Below are positions 2,636-61,255 of a stretch of DNA of 62,525 nt, piece by piece. The notes below the pieces were generated by a model, which searched no databases, had not been told where the DNA came from, and was given only the letters and a program-made list of their open reading frames with translations. The DNA is taken from the NCBI GenBank assembly GCA_964481175.1, contig CAYZSZ010000002.1, positions 1-62,525 on the forward strand. Reading direction: 5' to 3'. Position numbers and translations under genes: made by a program. The DNA is from an uncultured Candidatus Saccharibacteria bacterium. Its GTDB lineage: Bacteria; Patescibacteriota; Minisyncoccia; Phycocordibacterales; PALSA-1337. Each line of letters starts with the position of its first letter. The stretch's first letter is position 1.

Positions 2636-3398
2636 ATAATTTTATTGAGAGAGGGCAGTGATCAGATCCTAAAATATCGTTGTGAATATTGACTTCTTTG
2701 ATCTTTTCCAAAATTCCTTTTGTTACAAAAAAGTAATCGATTCTCCATCCAACGTTGCGATCTCTTGCAAAAGTTTTCATATCCCAGTAAGTGTACACAT
2801 CTTTTTTTTCTGGATTTAGAGATCTAAAAACATCGAAGTAATTATTCTTTACAACTTTATCGAGCCATGCACGTTCGATAGGGAGGAACCCTGTGTTATC
2901 CACATTTTCTTTTGGTCGTGCAAGATCTATCTCTGTGTGTGCAGTATTAATATCTCCACAAAAGATGATTTCATGGCCTTTTTTCTTTAATTTATTGATA
3001 TATTCCAAAAAAGCATCGTAAAACTTGAGTTTATATGCCAATCTGTCAGGTCCACCACCTCCGTTAGGGAAGTAGCAGTTAATAAATACAAAATCTTCAT
3101 AAAATGCAGTGATCATACGACCTTCTTGGTCTAATTCTGGATTGCCAACACTGAATTCTACTTTCAAAGGCTCTATTTTCGAATATATGGCTACACCGCT
3201 GTATCCTTTACGGGTTTTGCTTGATTCAAAAAAGGCATGATAGCCCTTTGGAGCACGAACTTCAGGAGGGAGCTGGTCTGCCTCTGCCTTTATCTCTTGC
3301 ATACAGAAAATATCTGCATTCTGAGCTAGTAACCAATCGAATCCACCTTTCTTCACATTCGCACGGAGACCATTTACATTCCAAGAAATGATTTTCAT
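2634..3398 (-). CDS. xth: exodeoxyribonuclease III (AP endonuclease)
   Basis: 254 aa. MKIISWNVNGLRA..CMQE..GYSGVA..WRIDY..SDHCP are classic ExoIII/EEP motifs. Confidence 0.9.
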   Translation of the reverse strand: MKIISWNVNGLRANVKKGGFDWLLAQNADIFCMQEIKAEADQLPPEVRAPKGYHAFFESSKTRKGYSGVAIYSKIEPLKVEFSVGNPELDQEGRMITAFYEDFVFINCYFPNGGGGPDRLAYKLKFYDAFLEYINKLKKKGHEIIFCGDINTAHTEIDLARPKENVDNTGFLPIERAWLDKVVKNNYFDVFRSLNPEKKDVYTYWDMKTFARDRNVGWRIDYFFVTKGILEKIKEVNIHNDILGSDHCPLSIKL

Positions 3399-53801: not shown

Positions 53802-54590
53802 CTATATAATCTTTCTCAATCCTTGTTCGAGGCTGACTTTTGGTTCCCAGTTTAGCTTTTGTTTTGCCTTTGAAATATCAGCGATAGAGTACTGAATATC
53901 ACCTTTGCGGGGAGGAGAATATACGATTTTTGATTTCGATTTGCATAGTTTGATGATGAGCTCTGCCAATTCTTTTATGGTGATACCGACTCCACTCGCA
54001 ATGTTAAAGACTTCGAAGCGATCATTGTTATACTCCATCGCTTTTACATTTGCCTCTACGATATCGTCGATAAAAATAAAATCACGCACCTGAGATCCAT
54101 CTCCAGAAATATCTATGTCTTTGTTTTCTTTTGCGAGTCGTATGAAATGATTGATCACACCGGAGCGGGAAGGGTAGACGTTGAAATAACGAAGTGCGAT
54201 ATGGTTGCCACTCGAAAGTATTTTTTCTGCATCTACTTTGTTTTGTCCATACGGTGACTCGGGACGCAGTGCAAAATCTTCTTTTACAGTTTCATTGTAG
54301 GTACCGTAGACTGCAGCGCTACTAGAAAAGACAATTTTTTTACCAAGTGAGGCAATATTTTTTGTTCCCAGCACATTGACCGCATAGTACTCATCAGGTT
54401 TTTCAAAACTCTCTCCGACGCTGATCTTTGCAGCACAGTGAAATACACCATCGACATCGCGATATGATGCAACATCTTCTAAGCGCAAAATATCAAGACC
54501 TTGGTGTGTATCAAATACAATTCCACCAACTCGCTCCGCAATCTTTGATCCTATAAAGCCAGAGCCGCCAGTAACTAGGTATTTCTTCAT
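53802..54590 (-). CDS. NAD-dependent epimerase/dehydratase family protein (short)
   Basis: 262 aa. It has a Rossmann motif VTGGSGFIGS and a catalytic YxxxK (YGQNK). Confidence 0.8.
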   Translation of the reverse strand: MKKYLVTGGSGFIGSKIAERVGGIVFDTHQGLDILRLEDVASYRDVDGVFHCAAKISVGESFEKPDEYYAVNVLGTKNIASLGKKIVFSSSAAVYGTYNETVKEDFALRPESPYGQNKVDAEKILSSGNHIALRYFNVYPSRSGVINHFIRLAKENKDIDISGDGSQVRDFIFIDDIVEANVKAMEYNNDRFEVFNIASGVGITIKELAELIIKLCKSKSKIVYSPPRKGDIQYSIADISKAKQKLNWEPKVSLEQGLRKII

Positions 54591-55869: not shown

Positions 55870-55982
55870 AGTAGTAGTTGGGAAAGCTCTTTGAACTGAG
55901 GTATTTGACTGCATCTTTGAGGGCATTTCGTGCCTTGAAAGATGCAGTCACAAACCAACCTGCACACAACCAACCTCAAAAC

Positions 55983-56471
55983 ATGATAACGAACTGGAAG
56001 ACATTGCCCGTCACCTCCTTCACCTCGGCAGAGGAGCTTCTCAAAGCTTTGGAAGAAAACGGCATCGTGGTTGGGTGGAAAGCCGCCCAACTTATCAGAA
56101 AACTGGATGGCAACATTCAGTTTCCATCGGAACCTGTAAAGGTCTCCATTGTGACGAATGCCGATCTCGGTATTACCGATTCGGTCAGCGTCCAAGACTT
56201 CTACGGGAAAGCTACGGCCGCCCGCCACAAACTCTGCACGACAGGAATCGGCATCCTCGCTCGGCTGGCTTACACGCCATCCGAACAGATTGAAAACTAC
56301 GATCTGTGGTTCATCGCCATCGCGATGGAGCCTGTGGAGGTTGACGGTGAGCACCTCATCCTGCGTATCGCCGCTGGCACGCAAGGCTCTCGGCTTGACG
56401 CGGTCGCCGTGACCGGCGATGAAGCGTTCAATTCCGATGCAAAGGACAAGTGGCTCGTCGTGAGCGAATAG
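55983..56471 (+). CDS. GC-rich 162-aa hypothetical protein (island)
   Basis: The ATG at 55983 follows a roughly 105-nt leader. The amino-acid composition is balanced, unlike the Arg/His/Cys-rich antisense ORF. A terminator lies downstream. I recognise no family. Confidence 0.55.
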   Translation: MITNWKTLPVTSFTSAEELLKALEENGIVVGWKAAQLIRKLDGNIQFPSEPVKVSIVTNADLGITDSVSVQDFYGKATAARHKLCTTGIGILARLAYTPSEQIENYDLWFIAIAMEPVEVDGEHLILRIAAGTQGSRLDAVAVTGDEAFNSDAKDKWLVVSE

Positions 56472-56528
56472 TGGCATATCCACTCGGTGAAGCAACCGCG
56501 AGTTCAATCCTCGTAAAACTTTCAACAA

Positions 56529-56560
56529 CGCACTGGCTTCGGCTGGTGCGTTTTCCTTTT
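56529..56560. terminator. bidirectional-looking intrinsic terminator
   Basis: CGCACTGGC-TTCG-GCTGGTGCG is followed by TTTTCCTTTT on the plus strand. It sits between convergent genes. Confidence 0.7.
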
Positions 56561-56566
56561 ATAATT

Positions 56567-57487
56567 TTATTTCTTTGGAATCGGCGGAAGATTTTTGTAT
56601 CCAATGGTGTACCTAATTGGATTATCCTTGTTTCTTTTATCTTCAGGAATCTCAACCACCACTAGAGGCTCTGGTAACTTTGTACTTAGTAAAAATACAA
56701 TTATTTCCTCGCACAAATGGAATATGTTTTGCCAACAGATATTAAGTACCTCCTCAATAGTTTGATGCTGAATAGTAAAATATTTAGGCTTTATTTTGTT
56801 CTGGTTTAATACATATTGCACAGGTGGAACCTTGAATCCATCATGTTCAATGCTGTTTCTGATTTTAATGAAAATCTTATGCCAAGCTTTTCGGTCATCT
56901 TCAATAAACTTACAAAAGTCCACAAATCTTGCATCGGGATTAATCTTTAAGAATCTCTCTTTCTTTTTTTGAAAGTCTTTGTCATCCACAAAAGCAAAGC
57001 TGATGTTGTATCCTAGAAAACCAGCCAATTTTATCAAGCTCTTTAAGGCAATATTTCCACGAATAAAGAAATCCTTGAAAGACATGTTCATATCATTATC
57101 AATTGTTTTCTCTATTGTTATAAGTCCTTGAGCTTCATTATACTTACAATTTTTTCCATCTTTAATATCCTTGTTATGCTCTTCAATCAGGCTTAGGCAC
57201 TTTTCTTTTGCCAACTTTGCTTCGTATAGATTTTGCATGACTGGCTCATGCTTTTTATCAAAATCCATTTTATCTTTGGCATTATAGATATGATTTCTGA
57301 TGTCGCAGATTTGAAACATCATTCTTGCAATAAAGGGGTCGCTTGTTCCGTTCTCATATGCAATTCTCATAACTCCTCCTCGGGGTAGTGTATCCAACTC
57401 GCAACACTTCTTAAATTTCATCCCACTTCCGCAAGGACATTTGTCATTTCTACCAGGTTTTTTGAGATTATTAGCTGATTCAGTCAT
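56567..57487 (-). CDS. SEC-C zinc-binding motif protein with C-terminal RNxxxH (HEPN-like) motif
   Basis: The protein is 306 aa from the ATG at 57487 (MTESANN..). It has CPCGSGMKFKKCC at residues 17-29 and KIRNSIEHDG with R210/H215 (nt 56843-56860). The gene is AT-rich. Confidence 0.6.
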   Translation of the reverse strand: MTESANNLKKPGRNDKCPCGSGMKFKKCCELDTLPRGGVMRIAYENGTSDPFIARMMFQICDIRNHIYNAKDKMDFDKKHEPVMQNLYEAKLAKEKCLSLIEEHNKDIKDGKNCKYNEAQGLITIEKTIDNDMNMSFKDFFIRGNIALKSLIKLAGFLGYNISFAFVDDKDFQKKKERFLKINPDARFVDFCKFIEDDRKAWHKIFIKIRNSIEHDGFKVPPVQYVLNQNKIKPKYFTIQHQTIEEVLNICWQNIFHLCEEIIVFLLSTKLPEPLVVVEIPEDKRNKDNPIRYTIGYKNLPPIPKK

Positions 57488-57736
57488 AGCAGAAAGAGTA
57501 TAAACAATATAGGTAAAATAAGATATAATGGCTCTACAACTGAATATGAGCCTAACCTTTTGCGAAACACTGTTTCGCATGAGCATGGCTATAGGAAATC
57601 CGTTCAAAGTATAAAGCTCTTCGTCAGAGCACTTTGAACGGTCATGCAGGGAAACTTGTATGGGTGACCTTCGGGTCATCGCTGGCGGAGAGCTTTATGC
57701 TGTCTAGCCTATTATCAACCAAAACCGTTCAAAGAT

Positions 57737-58333
57737 ATGCAAATAGCAAGAATCATCATCGGGGCTTTTATTATACTTGTCTCAATCTTTCAGTTGAAAG
57801 ATATGCCGATAACAGGCATTGTGGGAATAGCTTTAGGCGTAAGTTTGATGCCATATACTTGGGGATTCCTTCATAAGAAATACAACCTCGTTCTTGATAA
57901 GAAATATAAAATTATAATTGCCGTTGTGCTTCTCGTATTGTTCGGCTCCACCCTGCCAGAATCTGATACTCCTCCATCTGTAGCAGTATCAGCTCCTACT
58001 TCTGAAGCAAAGCAAGAAACTCCAGAGGAAGCTACCAAGCCTTCTGAAGATGAGAAGGTAAAGGCTCAAGCAGAACTTGATGAAGTCTTAGGCTTAGCCA
58101 AGAAAGCAGGTTTGATTAAGAGCTATGAGTTTTCGGAAACCAAGAGAGTGATTTATGCGGATAGAGTTTGGTATACCCAGACTGTTACTTTCAAGAAAGA
58201 CTTTATGGGAAAGGTGGCATCACTGCGAAAGACAATTTCAGGTTACCATCGTTTTGAAGTGAGGGATGCTTATTCAGATGAGAAAGTGGGAGAAGTGACT
58301 GCATTCAGTGGTTCTATTGAGGTTTATAAGTAG
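57737..58333 (+). CDS. 3-TM membrane protein with soluble C-terminal domain (island)
   Basis: 198 aa. Three N-terminal hydrophobic helices are followed by a P/S/E-rich linker and a roughly 90-aa beta-rich domain. Confidence 0.55.
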   Translation: MQIARIIIGAFIILVSIFQLKDMPITGIVGIALGVSLMPYTWGFLHKKYNLVLDKKYKIIIAVVLLVLFGSTLPESDTPPSVAVSAPTSEAKQETPEEATKPSEDEKVKAQAELDEVLGLAKKAGLIKSYEFSETKRVIYADRVWYTQTVTFKKDFMGKVASLRKTISGYHRFEVRDAYSDEKVGEVTAFSGSIEVYK

Positions 58334-58392
58334 AAACCCGCCCACAAAGCCCCAGAATGCTTTTTAAGGTCGTTGGGTGATAAAATAATGTT

Positions 58393-60024
58393 ATGCCTTA
58401 CCCGAACAATAAAGAAGAGCTACTGGAAGCTCTCAAGTCAATCTATAATCCCACGGATACCAGTGCCGCAAAGGAAGGCTACCGATATATTATCTATGTT
58501 AGAAAATCAACGGACGAAAGCGAAAATCAGGTTAGGTCACTGGCAGACCAAATCCTAGAGTGCAAGGATTTTGCGATAAAGCATAATTTGAAGTTTTCAG
58601 AAAAGGATATTTTGGAAGAAGCTGAATCAGCAAAGGAGCCAGGCATACGGCCGAAGTTCAAGATGATGATTGATGCTTTGAACAATGGAAAATATGACGG
58701 CATCATAGCGTGGCACCCTGATAGGCTGGCAAGGAACATGAAAGATGCGGGGGAAATAATTGACCTCGTAGACAAAGCTATCATCAAAGACTTGAAGTTT
58801 GTAAGCTTCACTTTCACTAATGACGCAAGCGGTAAAATGCTTTTAGGTATCACCTTCGTCCTCTCAAAACAGTATTCTGATAAATTAAGTGACGATGTTA
58901 ACCGAGGAAACAAGCACAGTATTCTTGAAGGTAAATATATAAATCGCCCTAAATATGGATACTATAAAGACAGGAATAAGTTCTTGCGACCCGATGGAAA
59001 AAACTTCAATTTGATAAAGAACTCTTTCCGCATGAGACTTGAAGGAAAGACGATGGATGATATTGCAAATTATCTCAATGAAAACAGCTATTCTCGGCTC
59101 CTGCCAAACGGCGAAAGATTTTTTCCTAAATTGGACAAGCAACGGATAGAGAGGTTTCTCAAAGACCCTGTCTACACAGGCATCCTCATGTATGGCAAGA
59201 AGAACATTGTAGACCTTACCACTATCTATGATTTTATGCCCATGTTGAGCGTTGAGGATTTTATGAAGATAAACAAGCTGTCAGACAAATCTCAACTCTT
59301 CAAGCTCTCAAAGAGCTATCGCAAAGCTGAAAGCATCAAAGCCAACCTCTTGCGGGGAATTGTTTTTTGCCATTCATGCGATGAAGCAATGGCTTCAGGT
59401 ATTACTCCTAAGAAAACAAAGAAAGGCATTACAAGATATTTTTACTATCGCTGTGAAAATGAGGATTGCCCACGGTACGGAAAATCAGTCAGGGCAAAAG
59501 TCATCATGGAATATATCTATGCGTTCCTTGATAAAAAGCCTTTTGCTTCAAAGAAAAGCTATGACCATTACAAAGCAGAAATGACACATGTATCTGAACA
59601 GAGAATCTTAGATGCCAAAGACACACTTATGTCTCTTAAAGCTCAAAAGAGGAAATTGCATGAGAAACTGCTGAATACCAAAGATTTACTCTTAAATAAC
59701 AAGGATGAGGAAATAAAGGTTCATTTCAAAGGAGATTTGAAGGTCATTGATACAGAAATCGGTAAAGTTGCAGAGGCTATTGCTAAAACGGAAGGATTGA
59801 TAGAGAAAGGAAAGGCCAGTATTCTCACCTATGCTCAATTTCTTGAACTTATGGAAAAAATGCCTATTTTGCTTCGTTCTTTGAAGAATATGAGTGAACT
59901 AGACTACATCATACGAAAAATGTTCTTGAACTTTACGGTAAGTGCAAAAAGCGTAGAGAAATCAACGCTTAATTCACCTTTTGATGTGCTTGATGAGCAC
60001 AAAGTCCTACAATGTGCGCGATGA
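58393..60024 (+). CDS. large serine recombinase (integrase type)
   Basis: 543 aa. The resolvase catalytic domain has YIIYVRKSTDESENQVRSLADQ and ..WHPDRLARN. There is also a recombinase domain, a zinc ribbon (CHSC..C..C) and a C-terminal coiled-coil. Confidence 0.9.
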   Translation: MPYPNNKEELLEALKSIYNPTDTSAAKEGYRYIIYVRKSTDESENQVRSLADQILECKDFAIKHNLKFSEKDILEEAESAKEPGIRPKFKMMIDALNNGKYDGIIAWHPDRLARNMKDAGEIIDLVDKAIIKDLKFVSFTFTNDASGKMLLGITFVLSKQYSDKLSDDVNRGNKHSILEGKYINRPKYGYYKDRNKFLRPDGKNFNLIKNSFRMRLEGKTMDDIANYLNENSYSRLLPNGERFFPKLDKQRIERFLKDPVYTGILMYGKKNIVDLTTIYDFMPMLSVEDFMKINKLSDKSQLFKLSKSYRKAESIKANLLRGIVFCHSCDEAMASGITPKKTKKGITRYFYYRCENEDCPRYGKSVRAKVIMEYIYAFLDKKPFASKKSYDHYKAEMTHVSEQRILDAKDTLMSLKAQKRKLHEKLLNTKDLLLNNKDEEIKVHFKGDLKVIDTEIGKVAEAIAKTEGLIEKGKASILTYAQFLELMEKMPILLRSLKNMSELDYIIRKMFLNFTVSAKSVEKSTLNSPFDVLDEHKVLQCAR

Positions 60025-60087
60025 GGGACTCGAACCCCCGACCTTATCAGTGTAAATGATCTGCTCTACCAACTGAGCTAATCGCGC
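60015..60087 (-). tRNA. tRNA-Val (UAC)
   Basis: Reverse complement GCGCGAT-TA-GCTCAGTTGGTAGAGC-A-GATCA-TTTACAC-TGATA-AGGTC-GGGGG-TTCGAGT-CCCTC-ATCGCGC-A. The tRNA looks intact. Its 3' 10 nt overlap the recombinase stop region. Confidence 0.85.
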
Positions 60088-60101
60088 ATTTACCTGTAGT
60101 T

Positions 60102-60833
60102 ATGCTAGAGTACATCATTATGGAGGAAATTTCAATCTTATACGAAGACAAGCACTATATCGCGGTCAACAAACCGGCTGGTATTGTGGTGCATCCAGAT
60201 GGCAAACGAGAGGAGCCAGCACTCACGGACTGGATCATCAAACACTATCCAAATATAAAGGGAGTAGGGGAACCACTCATGGGGATCGACCGTCCTGGTA
60301 TTGTCCATCGTATCGACAAAGAGACTTCGGGGGTACTTTTGATTGCAAAAGACCAAGAGGCATACGAGGCACTCAAAGCTCAGTTCCAAGACCGAACAGT
60401 AAAGAAAAAATACTATGCATTTGTGTACGGAGAACTAAAAGACAAATACGGCATCATCAATCGTCCGATCGGTCGCAGCAAGAGTGACTTCCGCAAATGG
60501 TCTGCAACACGAGGAGCTCGTGGAGAGATGCGAGAAGCTGAAACCTGGTACACCGTCATAAAGACTACAAAACTAGCTTCATATGTCCTTGTAGAGCCAA
60601 AAACAGGCCGTACACACCAGATCCGAGTACATTTTGCAGCTATCAATCATCCAATCATCCATGACGGTCTTTACGCCGCTGGCAAACAAAAGCTTTTTGG
60701 CTTTACCCGAAACGCCCTACACGCATTCTCAGTCACCTTTACCAATATGGAGGGCAAAGAGGTCACCGTCGAGGCTCCGCTCCCAAAAGACTTTGTGGAG
60801 GCTAAAAACGAGTTTGGGCTTGCGGAAATATAG
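60102..60833 (+). CDS. RluA-family pseudouridine synthase
   Basis: 243 aa. It has ..HRIDKETSGVLLIAK.. and ..GRTHQIRVH. Confidence 0.85.
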   Translation: MLEYIIMEEISILYEDKHYIAVNKPAGIVVHPDGKREEPALTDWIIKHYPNIKGVGEPLMGIDRPGIVHRIDKETSGVLLIAKDQEAYEALKAQFQDRTVKKKYYAFVYGELKDKYGIINRPIGRSKSDFRKWSATRGARGEMREAETWYTVIKTTKLASYVLVEPKTGRTHQIRVHFAAINHPIIHDGLYAAGKQKLFGFTRNALHAFSVTFTNMEGKEVTVEAPLPKDFVEAKNEFGLAEI

Positions 60834-60859
60834 GGTTTGTGATAGATTTGCTCCTACGT

Positions 60860-61255
60860 ATGGCAATAATTACCTCAGTAAATATCGACGAACGAACTAA
60901 ACTTGACTTCCAGTCAGGCGACACTGTTCGTGTTTGGCAGAAAATCAAAGAAAAGGACAAGTTCCGACTTCAAGCATTTGAAGGTCTTGTACTCGCTCGA
61001 AAGCACGGAGAACAAGCAGGAGGAACGTTTACAGTTCGAAAGGTTATGGACGGAGTAGGGGTAGAAAAGATCTTCCCACTATTCTCACCGATGATCGACA
61101 AGATTGAGGTCACTCGACGAGCAAAGACACGACGAAGCAAACTCTATTTCGTACGAGAAAAGGCAGCAAAAGAAATCCGACGTGCGATGCGAAAGACACT
61201 AGCAGCAAAAGAGGTAGTAGAAGAAACTCCAAAAGTAGAAAACACCGAAGCATAA
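60860..61255 (+). CDS. rplS: 50S ribosomal protein L19
   Basis: The ATG is at 60860. ..FQSGDTVRV..K.RLQAFEG.V.A.......FTVRK...GVGVE..FP..SP.I.. is the L19 pattern, followed by a basic/acidic C-terminal extension. Confidence 0.9.
   Translation: MAIITSVNIDERTKLDFQSGDTVRVWQKIKEKDKFRLQAFEGLVLARKHGEQAGGTFTVRKVMDGVGVEKIFPLFSPMIDKIEVTRRAKTRRSKLYFVREKAAKEIRRAMRKTLAAKEVVEETPKVENTEA

What the first reader, a model, noticed from the sequence alone, without database searches (positions are those of the whole stretch)
56567..58333. SEC-C zinc motif plus RNxxxH (HEPN-like) protein divergent from a 3-TM protein: candidate defence/abortive-infection module
Seen: the 306-aa AT-rich ORF begins with the SecA-type metal-binding motif CPCGSGMKFKKCC. 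In its helical C-terminal half it carries KIRNSIEHDG (nt 56843-56860 translate to R-N-S-I-E-H).

Established: R-[NHQ]-x3-H is the catalytic signature of HEPN RNases. These are used by Cas13, Csm6/Csx1, Abi-type and toxin-antitoxin systems, and they are enriched on mobile islands.

The gene is divergent, across a 250-nt repeat-bearing spacer, from a protein with three TM helices, a linker and a small soluble domain. It is convergent with the GC-rich 162-aa orphan. The large serine recombinase follows.

Inference: a two- or three-gene module carried by the island, with a HEPN-like effector and a membrane or sensor partner. It may act in abortive infection or addiction.

I do not recognise this domain combination as a named system.

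Caveat: the HEPN call rests on a single short motif and its context.
Basis: partly seen in the sequence, partly recalled or inferred. Interest (0 to 1): 0.7.

Follow-up and report, generated by a model that had tools for sequence, protein, structure and literature searches.

The report
Solo SEC-C plus HEPN-like defence gene
A 306-residue protein on a small mobile element belongs to a large, undescribed family with a zinc-finger tag in some members and an invariant Arg/His/Glu set that looks like an RNA-cutting HEPN toxin; it travels alone, often beside restriction-modification genes, and its supposed membrane partner belongs to the element instead.

Summary
Window 56567-57487(-) encodes a 306-aa protein with a Pfam-significant N-terminal SEC-C motif, and RNSIEH lies at 56843-56860.

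The rest of the protein matches no Pfam, NCBIfam, PADLOC or PHROG model and no PDB or BFVD fold. It nevertheless belongs to a large family: 807 representatives of 50%-identity clusters. Most members lack SEC-C.

In 133 near-full-length diverged members R210 and H215 are invariant, and E260 is 98% conserved. The R-N/D-x3-H motif ends a long helix, as in HEPN helix-3. The only recurrent sub-threshold Pfam hits are HEPN families. Foldseek finds no HEPN structure, so HEPN membership is probable but unproven.

The proposed two- or three-gene module is not supported. Neither the TM protein nor the 162-aa gene accompanies any of about 27 homologues.

Eleven of 25 loci do carry a DNA methyltransferase within three genes. 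Several loci are serine-recombinase elements next to tRNA genes.

The "repeat-bearing spacer" is a LOOT RNA (RF03000, 57549-57680+). It heads the TM-protein and recombinase operon.

Best reading: a single-gene, abortive-infection-type HEPN-like RNase carried as mobile-element cargo. It resembles Lactococcus Rugutis by description, but homology could not be tested.

The parts
56567..57487 (-). Focal gene, 306 aa plus stop: N-terminal SEC-C zinc motif, a helical N-terminal half, and a C-terminal HEPN-like helical domain
   Evidence: ORF. Start supported by homologue alignment. Family of 807 cluster representatives. AF2 pLDDT 82.
57398..57451 (-). SEC-C metal-binding motif, residues 13-30 (CPCGSGMKFKKCC)
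   Evidence: Pfam PF02810, E=4.9e-9, above the gathering score. Translation.
56672..57112 (-). HEPN-like core, residues 126-272: long helix, short helix, long helix ending in RNSIEH, beta-hairpin, long helix carrying E260
   Evidence: Domain-only AF2 model, pLDDT 92, pTM 0.80. Consensus of this region hits HEPN_LA2681 (E=0.001) and HEPN_Apea (E=0.028), both below cut-off. No Foldseek hit.
56843..56860 (-). R210-N-S-I-E-H215, candidate catalytic Rx4H motif
   Evidence: Translation. R and H are invariant in 133 of 133 representatives; N/D follows R in 74%.
56708..56710 (-). Codon of E260, the third near-invariant residue (98%), in the helix after the motif
56527..56552 (+). GC-rich hairpin with a T-run between the convergent 162-aa gene and the focal gene (terminator-like)
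57501..57529 (+). Sigma-70-like promoter match (TAAACA-17-TATAAT) 20 nt upstream of the LOOT RNA, back-to-back with the focal gene start
   Evidence: This is a consensus match only; the count does not exceed shuffles.
57549..57680 (+). LOOT RNA (Rfam RF03000), which fills the 'repeat-bearing spacer'
   Evidence: 74.6 bits against a gathering score of 46.4, full-length model match.
57737..58333 (+). 198-aa membrane protein (about 3 TM segments, linker, small C-terminal domain). It belongs to the LOOT, TM protein, recombinase unit and is not a conserved partner of the focal gene.
   Evidence: No homologue beside any focal-gene homologue.
58393..60024 (+). Large serine recombinase of the element. 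Its stop overlaps the 3' end of tRNA-Val.
   Evidence: Pfam Resolvase, Recombinase and Zn_ribbon_recom. Homologous recombinases beside focal homologues in L005, L014, L022 and L028.
60015..60087 (-). tRNA-Val(TAC), the probable integration site and right border of the element
55983..56471 (+). 162-aa GC-rich gene, convergent with the focal gene. It is an independent cassette, not a partner.
   Evidence: Homologues at 52-84% identity in other contexts without the focal gene. About 80% nucleotide identity is confined to window 55906-56485.

Best explanation
The focal gene is a stand-alone cargo gene of a roughly 5.4-kb element. That element carries a large serine recombinase and is integrated at tRNA-Val.

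The protein belongs to a large, so far undescribed family. The family's conserved core is a helical domain with an invariant R-(N/D)-x3-H motif at the end of a long helix, plus a near-invariant Glu in the next helix.

**Most likely mechanism (inferred).** This is a divergent HEPN-type, metal-independent RNase. It would be kept inactive in normal growth by its own N-terminal helical half and switched on by phage infection or DNA damage. It would then cleave cellular or viral RNA and stop growth, an abortive-infection or addiction type of effector. It would serve as a second line of defence beside restriction-modification systems.

In the Patescibacteria subfamily to which the window protein belongs, an N-terminal SEC-C zinc finger is added. 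This may tether the enzyme to a partner such as the ribosome (speculative).

**Shown here:** the motif, its conservation and its position in the models; family size; absence of a conserved partner; the restriction-modification and mobile-element neighbourhood.

**Inferred:** the HEPN fold, the RNase activity, the trigger, and the role of SEC-C.
For: **Conservation.**
- R210 and H215 are invariant and E260 is 98% conserved in 133 diverged representatives.
- The residue after R is N or D in 74%. This matches the HEPN rule that this residue is polar, mostly N, D or H (PMC3710099).

**Structure prediction.** In both AF2 models the motif closes the third long helix and is followed by a loop or hairpin and a fourth helix. 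In solved HEPN domains the motif sits at the end of helix-3.

**Weak profile matches.**
- Among 78 members scanned at E<=10, HEPN_Apea was the family hit by most members (5). Only five families were hit by more than one member, and three of them are HEPN-clan (HEPN_Apea 5, LA2681 2, Cthe2314 2).
- Two further HEPN-clan families had single hits (Swt1 and 23S_rRNA_IVP).
- The consensus of the C-terminal domain hits HEPN_LA2681 (E=0.001) and HEPN_Apea (E=0.028) across the motif.

**Genomic context.**
- Of 115 ORFs within three genes of homologues, 11 are DNA methyltransferases, 6 are HTH_3 proteins, 3 are serine recombinases and 3 are tyrosine recombinases.
- Specific contexts include Type III-like, MmeI-like, GmrSD and Type I systems.
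- No conserved partner gene was found.
- In L028, as far as annotated, the gene sits with only a recombinase between a tRNA and host genes.
- Embedding of solo HEPN genes in restriction-modification loci is an established pattern, for example ApeA and PrrC/RloC (PMC3710099).
Against: - Foldseek found no match at E<0.3 for the full model and none below E=1.3 for the high-confidence domain model. No HEPN structure appears among the 50 best matches shown for either model.
- A profile search of PDB sequences found nothing relevant.
- All HEPN Pfam hits are below their gathering scores.
- No PADLOC model matches beyond the SEC-C motif.
- The upstream acidic-x3-basic motif (D139-x3-R143) is conserved only in the close subfamily.
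- One homologue sits right after hrcA-grpE-dnaK in an apparently housekeeping context.
- There is no experimental evidence of any kind.
Confidence: 0.5

Rival explanations
1. The protein is a defence or conflict enzyme of a truly new fold. It would use the invariant Arg/His/Glu set for another reaction, for example DNA or nucleotide cleavage. Its likeness to HEPN would be convergent.
For: There is no structural match to anything in PDB or BFVD despite pLDDT of 82-92. Pfam HEPN hits are only sub-threshold. Additional conserved polar residues (R55, D77, H104, D130, R285) lie outside a minimal HEPN core. The restriction-modification and mobile-element context holds in either case.
Against: The motif form, its position at a helix end, and the recurrent HEPN-family weak hits would all have to be coincidence.
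Confidence: 0.22
2. The protein is non-enzymatic and serves the mobile element, for example as a regulator, an exclusion or maintenance factor, or an adaptor. The conserved residues would bind a ligand or a partner.
For: It is carried on serine-recombinase elements. SEC-C motifs are interaction modules. In 8 loci the start codon is preceded by a conserved TTATCCACA-type (DnaA-box-like) sequence, and at least 6 of them are paired with a LexA-fused methyltransferase. This hints at tight regulation.
Against: Strict invariance of just R, H and E over 20%-identity divergence is typical of catalytic residues. Most family members lack SEC-C.
Confidence: 0.1
3. This is the first reader's model: a two- or three-gene module in which the 3-TM protein and/or the 162-aa protein is the sensor or antitoxin partner of the HEPN-like effector.
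For: The only support is adjacency in this window.
Against: - Neither neighbour has a homologue within five genes of any of about 27 homologues.
- The 162-aa gene occurs in L040 and L041 without the focal gene, and only that gene is conserved at the DNA level.
- The TM gene is co-directional with LOOT RNA and the recombinase. The same LOOT-first layout ends in a recombinase in L002.
Confidence: 0.03
4. The protein is the restriction endonuclease of the neighbouring methyltransferases.
For: It is divergently paired with a DNA methyltransferase in at least 6 loci.
Against: - The window has no methyltransferase near it.
- Homologues about 40% identical to the window protein sit beside methyltransferases of different classes: C5 in L009 and L012, N4/N6 in L010, L021 and L024.
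- Each of those methyltransferases already has its own C-protein plus a candidate endonuclease.
Confidence: 0.03
5. The protein is a housekeeping SEC-C protein linked to chaperones or secretion.
For: It carries a SEC-C motif. One homologue lies directly after hrcA-grpE-dnaK, where dnaJ usually sits.
Against: Distribution is patchy: only 23 loci were found in 185,579 species genomes for the close subfamily. Contexts are variable and mobile. Most family members have no SEC-C.
Confidence: 0.04

Closest known systems
HEPN superfamily solo RNases embedded in restriction-modification loci or mobile elements (ApeA/BMEI1217, LA2681, Cthe_2314, integron-cassette HEPN; Anantharaman et al. 2013, PMC3710099)
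   Same: - An R-(N/D)-x3-H motif at the end of a helix.
- An all-helical core.
- A single gene without a fixed partner.
- Frequent placement beside restriction-modification genes and on mobile elements.
- Weak profile similarity to exactly these Pfam families.
   Different: - No match reaches a Pfam gathering score, and there is no Foldseek match to any solved HEPN structure.
- The conserved unit is about 260 aa, with an extra N-terminal helical half and beta-hairpins.
- There is an invariant Glu after the motif rather than the usual upstream Ex3[KR].
- One subfamily carries a SEC-C zinc finger.
Rugutis, a single-gene abortive-infection-like system of Lactococcus plasmids (pUCCL633_059, 359 aa; PMC11381338, PMC12184496, PMC13064643)
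   Same: By published description:
- SEC-C motif at the N-terminus.
- The remainder is a confidently predicted fold with no PDB match.
- It is a single gene on a mobile element.

Rugutis is toxic when co-expressed with the phage c2 large terminase.
   Different: - It is 359 aa against 306 aa.
- tblastn of the family consensus and of a distant SEC-C-bearing member against 72,556 PLSDB plasmids gave no hit. This argues against close kinship if Rugutis relatives are in that collection.
- No R-x4-H motif has been reported for Rugutis.
SecA-type SEC-C metal-binding domain proteins (SecA C-terminus, YecA, YchJ; Pfam PF02810)
   Same: The CxCx8CC zinc motif scores above the Pfam cut-off. NCBIfam hits to YchJ/YecA-type families are confined to the motif.
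   Different: Here the motif is N-terminal, which is unusual, and is attached to an unrelated domain. In another family member (P0107) it is C-terminal. Most members lack it.
LOOT RNA (Rfam RF03000; Weinberg et al. 2017 motif collection), for the spacer element
   Same: Full-length match at 74.6 bits, well above the gathering score, with all helices present.
   Different: Its function is unknown. Here and in L002 it heads a co-directional gene set ending in a serine recombinase.

Membership tests
HEPN superfamily | Conserved Rx4-6H motif with a polar residue (N/D/H) after the Arg | tested here: met
   RNSIEH at residues 210-215. R and H are present in 133 of 133 representatives, with N or D after R in 74%.
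HEPN superfamily | Motif located at the end of core helix-3, at the start of the loop to helix-4 | tested here: met
   In the AF2 models helix 186-215 ends at H215. A loop and hairpin follow, then helix 244-268. The rule is quoted from PMC3710099. These are predicted structures, not solved ones.
HEPN superfamily | Four-helix up-down bundle superposable on solved HEPN domains | tested here: inconclusive
   Foldseek against PDB gave a best E of 0.32 for the full model and 1.3 for the domain model, with no HEPN entry among the matches listed. Foldseek is weak on helical bundles, and the coordinates could not be inspected.
HEPN superfamily | Significant profile match to a recognised HEPN family | tested here: inconclusive
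   Only sub-threshold hits were found: HEPN_LA2681 at 18.9 bits against a cut-off of 27, and HEPN_Apea at 15.3 against 24.4. HEPN-clan families account for three of the five families hit by more than one of the 78 members.
HEPN superfamily | Metal-independent RNase activity dependent on the Arg and His | not testable with these tools
   This needs biochemistry.
SEC-C motif (PF02810) | CxC-x8-C[CH] zinc-binding motif scoring above the Pfam gathering score | tested here: met
   36.3 bits against 20.4, residues 13-30.
Rugutis antiphage system | N-terminal SEC-C motif, single gene, remainder a fold without PDB match | tested here: met
   compared with the published description.
Rugutis antiphage system | Sequence homology to pUCCL633_059 | not tested
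   The sequence is not held in the tools or in supplements. Indirectly, there was no tblastn hit of the family consensus in PLSDB.
Rugutis antiphage system | Phage resistance, with toxicity triggered by the large terminase | not testable with these tools
   This is experimental.
   All-against-all BLAST of neighbours within five genes in 26 loci found no cluster that includes the TM or the 162-aa protein. A small HTH_3 gene lies within three genes in only a minority of loci, some of them C-proteins of adjacent restriction-modification systems.
Known defence systems in PADLOC-DB v2 | Match to any PADLOC protein model outside the SEC-C motif | tested here: not met
LOOT RNA (RF03000) | Covariance-model score above the gathering threshold over the full model | tested here: met
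   74.6 bits against 46.4, model positions 1-121.

The most novel reading that the evidence does not exclude
The family is a structurally new, metal-independent nuclease with an Arg/His/Glu active site that acts as a one-gene abortive-infection system. In candidate-phyla-radiation bacteria it would be tethered by a SEC-C zinc finger, possibly to the ribosome. In several restriction-modification loci it would be placed under a LexA-fused methyltransferase. DNA damage or failed restriction would then switch on RNA cleavage, giving an SOS-wired second line of defence in organisms whose immunity is poorly known.
Probability: 0.25. Interest if true: 0.75.

Novelty: new variant of a known kind. Interest (0 to 1): 0.55.

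Why it matters
If the call is right, about 800 protein clusters now labelled 'hypothetical' or 'SEC-C domain protein' become a candidate single-gene defence or toxin family. The family has a clear, testable active site (R210, H215, E260).

It would add to the sparse catalogue of immunity genes in Patescibacteria. It would also give a mechanistic lead for SEC-C-tagged defence proteins such as Rugutis, whose mode of action is unknown.

The finding also corrects the local annotation in two ways:
- The protein start used in public predictions overlaps a LOOT RNA.
- That RNA, of unknown function, is placed at the head of a serine-recombinase operon of mobile elements.

Tried and rejected
**Family and defence libraries.**
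- Pfam, NCBIfam, PADLOC and PHROG scans of the focal protein and its neighbours gave only SEC-C, the recombinase domains and a weak HTH.
- PADLOC on 10 diverse family members gave nothing beyond SEC-C.

**Structure and PDB searches.**
- Foldseek of the full model against PDB and BFVD, and of the domain model against PDB, gave no significant hit.
- A profile search of PDB sequences returned only designed helical repeats.

**Searches of plasmids, phages and viral contigs.**
- tblastn against PLSDB with the focal protein found only SEC-C stretches; with the family consensus and P0120 it found no match. The consensus found no match against INPHARED phages either.
- A scan of IMG/VR viral contigs found no relative.

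**Rugutis sequence.** I tried to obtain it from supplements and from SEC-C hits in Enterococcus and Clostridium plasmids. Those hits are C-terminal SEC-C proteins and unrelated.

**Element borders.** I looked for att-type direct repeats of the tRNA-Val 3' end and found none. That is expected for large serine recombinases, which use a 2-bp crossover (my knowledge).

**Other tests.**
- I tested whether the 467-aa gene upstream of a distant homologue equals the unknown N-terminal domain of the roughly 640-aa fusion proteins. It does not.
- The N-terminal domain of those fusions has no Pfam or PDB match.
- The search for related loci with the diverse alignment failed because it had no conserved stretch.
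- I considered LOOT RNA as an RNA antitoxin of the focal gene and rejected it. In L002 and L003 it lies about 5 kb from the homologue.
Full report
**1. What is there**

The ORF list gives 56567-57679(-) as a 370-aa ORF. That start is the right one, for three reasons:
- Every homologue begins at most about 10 residues before the zinc motif.
- The public prediction of 339 aa (P0001) and the 370-aa reading both run across a structured RNA on the other strand.
- The 306-aa protein aligns end to end with its relatives.

Residues 13-30 match Pfam SEC-C (PF02810) at E=4.9e-9, above the gathering score. Nucleotides 56843-56860 translate to RNSIEH.

**2. The body of the protein is an undescribed family**

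Outside the SEC-C motif nothing matches. This holds for Pfam, NCBIfam, PADLOC-DB v2 and PHROGs.

A word-indexed search found 12 close relatives at 46-58% identity. Two of them carry source names that place them in bacteria: a Nealsonbacteria MAG and an unclassified 'bacterium'.

An exhaustive HMM search of 1.84 billion cluster representatives found 807 at E<=1e-3, 260 at E<=1e-10 and 61 at E<=1e-30. Three architectures appear among the best 150:
- Most are about 280 aa and lack SEC-C.
- Some are about 640 aa, with an unknown N-terminal domain of roughly 360 aa (no Pfam or PDB match).
- One has the SEC-C motif at the C-terminus instead (P0107).

SEC-C is thus an accessory of one subfamily. Every named homologue is called 'hypothetical' or 'SEC-C domain-containing'.

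In one-genome-per-species collections the close subfamily occurs in 23 loci. Nearly all are Patescibacteria: Nomura-, Sacchari-, Staskawicz-, Berkel-, Magasanik-, Kaiser-, Falkow-, Gracili- and Paceibacteria.

**3. Conservation**

| Alignment | Result |
|---|---|
| 78 diverse sequences (18-52% identity to the window protein) | Only three invariant columns: R210, H215 and E260 (306-aa numbering) |
| 133 near-full-length representatives aligned to the family HMM | R210 100%, H215 100%, W202 99%, E260 98% |

Further details from the 133-sequence alignment:
- The residue after R is N or D in 74%.
- E214 is present in 79%.
- Other well-kept polar positions are R55, R64, D77, H104, D130, R199 and R285.
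- The family signature is W-x7-R-N-x-[IL]-E-H-x-G-[WF]-x-L-P.
- The acidic-x3-basic motif D139-x3-R143 (FKDFFIRG) is kept only in the close subfamily.

**4. Is it HEPN?**

The superfamily paper (PMC3710099) defines these features:
- An Rx4-6H motif with a polar residue after R.
- The motif sits at the end of helix-3, at the start of the loop to helix-4.
- The core is a four-helix up-down bundle, often with inserts.

*Points in favour.* The AF2 model of the whole protein has pLDDT 82 and pTM 0.75. A model of residues 126-272 alone has pLDDT 92 and pTM 0.80. Both place RNSIEH at the C-terminal end of helix 186-215. A beta-hairpin follows, then helix 244-268, which carries E260. The motif and its position therefore fit.

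Profile evidence is weak but directional:
- When all 78 diverse members were scanned against Pfam at E<=10, HEPN_Apea was the family hit by the most members (5).
- Only five families were hit by more than one member. Three of them are HEPN-clan: HEPN_Apea 5, HEPN_LA2681 2 and HEPN_Cthe2314 2. The other two are EAP30 and Tex_N, with 2 each.
- HEPN_Swt1 and 23S_rRNA_IVP each had a single hit.
- Consensus sequences of the C-terminal domain gave HEPN_LA2681 (E=0.001) and HEPN_Apea (E=0.028) as their best hits, spanning the motif. Both are below the curated cut-offs.

*Points against.* Foldseek found no significant match for either model in PDB, nor for the full model in BFVD. No HEPN entry appears among the matches listed. 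A profile search of PDB sequences found nothing relevant.

I therefore rate HEPN membership as probable, not established. Independently of the fold name, an invariant Arg, His and Glu is the classic make-up of metal-independent RNases (my knowledge: barnase and RNase T1 use Glu, Arg and His).

**5. Neighbourhood**

I compared about 27 loci, taken from the look-up of encoding contigs and from genome contigs.

*No conserved partner.* All-against-all BLAST of ORFs within five genes gave no cluster containing the window's TM protein or its 162-aa protein.

*What does recur within three genes, out of 115 ORFs:*

| Family | Count |
|---|---|
| DNA methyltransferases (7 N6_N4, 2 C5, 1 EcoRI-type, 1 HsdM) | 11 |
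| HTH_3 proteins | 6 |
| Proteins with both LexA_DNA_bind and Peptidase_S24 | 5 |
| Large serine recombinases | 3 |
| Tyrosine integrases | 3 |

Eleven of 25 distinct loci have a methyltransferase within three genes.

*Named contexts:*
- Type III-like Mod/Res plus DUF5655, a primase-polymerase and a serine recombinase (L002).
- An MmeI-like enzyme (L003).
- GmrSD plus an EcoRI-type methylase (L006/L007).
- A HinfI, Mrr, HNH and NOV_C island (L001).
- HsdM/HsdS (L014).
- A Rep, ImmA and serine-recombinase element (L005).

*Minimal arrangements.* In L014 and L028 the order is tRNA, focal gene, then a convergent serine recombinase. In L028 the flanks are a host glutamine synthetase and a large surface-type protein. 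That element may carry little besides this gene.

*Not the endonuclease.* The focal protein is unlikely to be the restriction enzyme of these systems:
- Homologues about 40% identical to the window protein sit beside methyltransferases of different classes.
- Those methyltransferases already have a C-protein and a candidate endonuclease of their own.

*Counter-example.* One homologue follows hrcA-grpE-dnaK (L038).

**6. The window's own anatomy**

The stretch between the epimerase gene (53802-54590) and tRNA-Val (60015-60087) looks like a mosaic integrated element. Its parts, in order:
- A 75-aa ORF.
- A 161-aa HTH protein, with a weak HTH_Tnp_1_2 or small-terminase-like match.
- The GC-rich 162-aa gene.
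- A hairpin terminator at 56527-56552.
- The focal gene, on the minus strand.
- On the plus strand: a promoter-like site at 57501-57529, a LOOT RNA at 57549-57680 (74.6 bits against 46.4), the 198-aa membrane protein, and the large serine recombinase. The recombinase stop codon overlaps the 3' end of tRNA-Val.

LOOT also occurs in L002 and L003, in each case 34-57 nt upstream of a small, non-homologous, mostly membrane or secreted ORF on the same strand. In L002, as in the window, that co-directional gene set ends in a serine recombinase. The TM gene thus belongs to the element's LOOT-to-recombinase unit, not to the focal gene.

The 162-aa gene has homologues at 52-84% identity. They lie in other contexts without the focal gene. 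Only that gene, window 55906-56485, is conserved at about 80% nucleotide identity. It is an independent cassette.

**7. How it most likely works**

*Shown:*
- A solo gene, mobile, often beside restriction-modification genes.
- An invariant R/H/E set on a helical domain.
- An optional zinc-finger tag.

*Inferred:*
- A HEPN-type RNase held inactive by its N-terminal half.
- Activation on infection or DNA damage, causing growth arrest or cell death. This follows the logic of PrrC/RloC, ApeA and the lactococcal Abi HEPN proteins.
- SEC-C, which in SecA binds SecB and the ribosome (my knowledge), could localise it to ribosomes.

*A lead from related loci, not from the window.* In at least six loci the divergent neighbour is a full LexA (DNA-binding plus S24 peptidase) fused to a DNA methyltransferase. 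The focal gene's start codon there is preceded by a conserved GTTATCCACA or GTTATCCCCA sequence. This suggests damage-responsive control.

**8. Comparison with the known**

The nearest kind is the solo, restriction-modification-embedded HEPN RNase (PMC3710099).

The nearest described system is Rugutis from Lactococcus plasmids. It is a single gene with an N-terminal SEC-C motif, the rest is a confidently predicted fold with no PDB hit, and it is toxic together with the phage c2 large terminase (PMC11381338, PMC12184496, PMC13064643).

I could not obtain its sequence. tblastn of the family consensus against PLSDB found nothing. Homology therefore remains open.

**9. Verdict**

- An HEPN-like, defence-associated effector: plausible.
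- A multi-gene module: rejected.

It is a new variant of a known kind and moderately interesting.

Noticed in passing
window 57549-57680 (+); L002 4645-4766 (-); L003 5084-5202 (-): LOOT RNA (RF03000), a structured RNA of unknown function, scores 74.6-92.6 bits at these three sites. Each copy lies 34-57 nt upstream of a small non-homologous ORF on the same strand. In the window and in L002 the co-directional gene set ends in a large serine recombinase. In the window and L003 it is divergent from a defence-type gene. This suggests LOOT is a leader or first gene of the backbone operon of Patescibacteria mobile elements.
   Followed up: partly
L009 1501-3078 (-), L010 987-2852 (-), L011 2522-4387 (-), L012 6340-7917 (-), L021 6490-7908 (-), L024 6406-7923 (-): These are DNA methyltransferases, C5 or N4/N6 class, fused to a complete N-terminal LexA (LexA_DNA_bind plus Peptidase_S24). 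Each sits convergent with a C-protein plus candidate endonuclease pair and divergent from a homologue of the focal gene. The LexA part is conserved while the methyltransferase class changes.
   Followed up: partly
L009 ~3147-3156, L010/L011, L012, L015, L024 (perfect); L021, L026 (TTATCCCCA): 1-7 nt before the start codon of the focal-gene homologue: A conserved GTTATCCACA sequence contains the DnaA-box consensus TTATCCACA. It sits where a ribosome-binding site would be, in the eight loci of the two LexA-methyltransferase-linked subclades. Upstream sequences are otherwise unalike between the two subclades. It is absent from the window.
   Followed up: partly
window 55906-56485 (gene 55983-56471 +); L040 1116-1621; L041 3010-3586: The 162-aa gene is 50-60% GC in a genome of about 42% GC. 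It is conserved at about 80% nucleotide identity in otherwise unrelated contexts, one beside a GIY-YIG fragment and one in a Resolvase element. The conserved block starts at a 26-nt inverted repeat (55900-55956). It may be a small mobile cassette. Its function is unknown.
   Followed up: partly
window 60014-60024; L022 5355-5373: The stop codon of the large serine recombinase overlaps the 3' end of a convergent tRNA gene (tRNA-Val here, an 82-nt tRNA in L022). This fits integration into tRNA 3' ends with the element supplying the tRNA's end. No long direct repeat marks the other border.
   Followed up: partly
proteins P0082, P0093, P0127 and others (about 640 aa); P0107: Many family members carry an unknown N-terminal domain of roughly 360 aa with no Pfam or PDB match. 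One member carries the SEC-C motif at the C-terminus instead of the N-terminus. The conserved core is thus combined with different accessory modules.
   Followed up: partly
L038 4254-8930: A 309-aa SEC-C-bearing homologue lies 50 nt downstream of hrcA-grpE-dnaK, in the position usually held by dnaJ.
   Followed up: no
window 57488-57679: The public gene call for this protein (339 aa, P0001) and the longest ORF (370 aa) extend the N-terminus across the LOOT RNA on the opposite strand. The start is probably mis-annotated.
   Followed up: yes
L022 4060-8927 versus window 56567-61255: A Saccharibacteria locus carries the same set of genes: RluA-type pseudouridine synthase, ribosomal protein L19, serine recombinase and a focal-gene homologue. 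There the recombinase abuts the other side of the rluA-rplS pair, and an HTH_3 gene directly precedes the homologue. Related elements have inserted at different nearby tRNA sites.
   Followed up: partly
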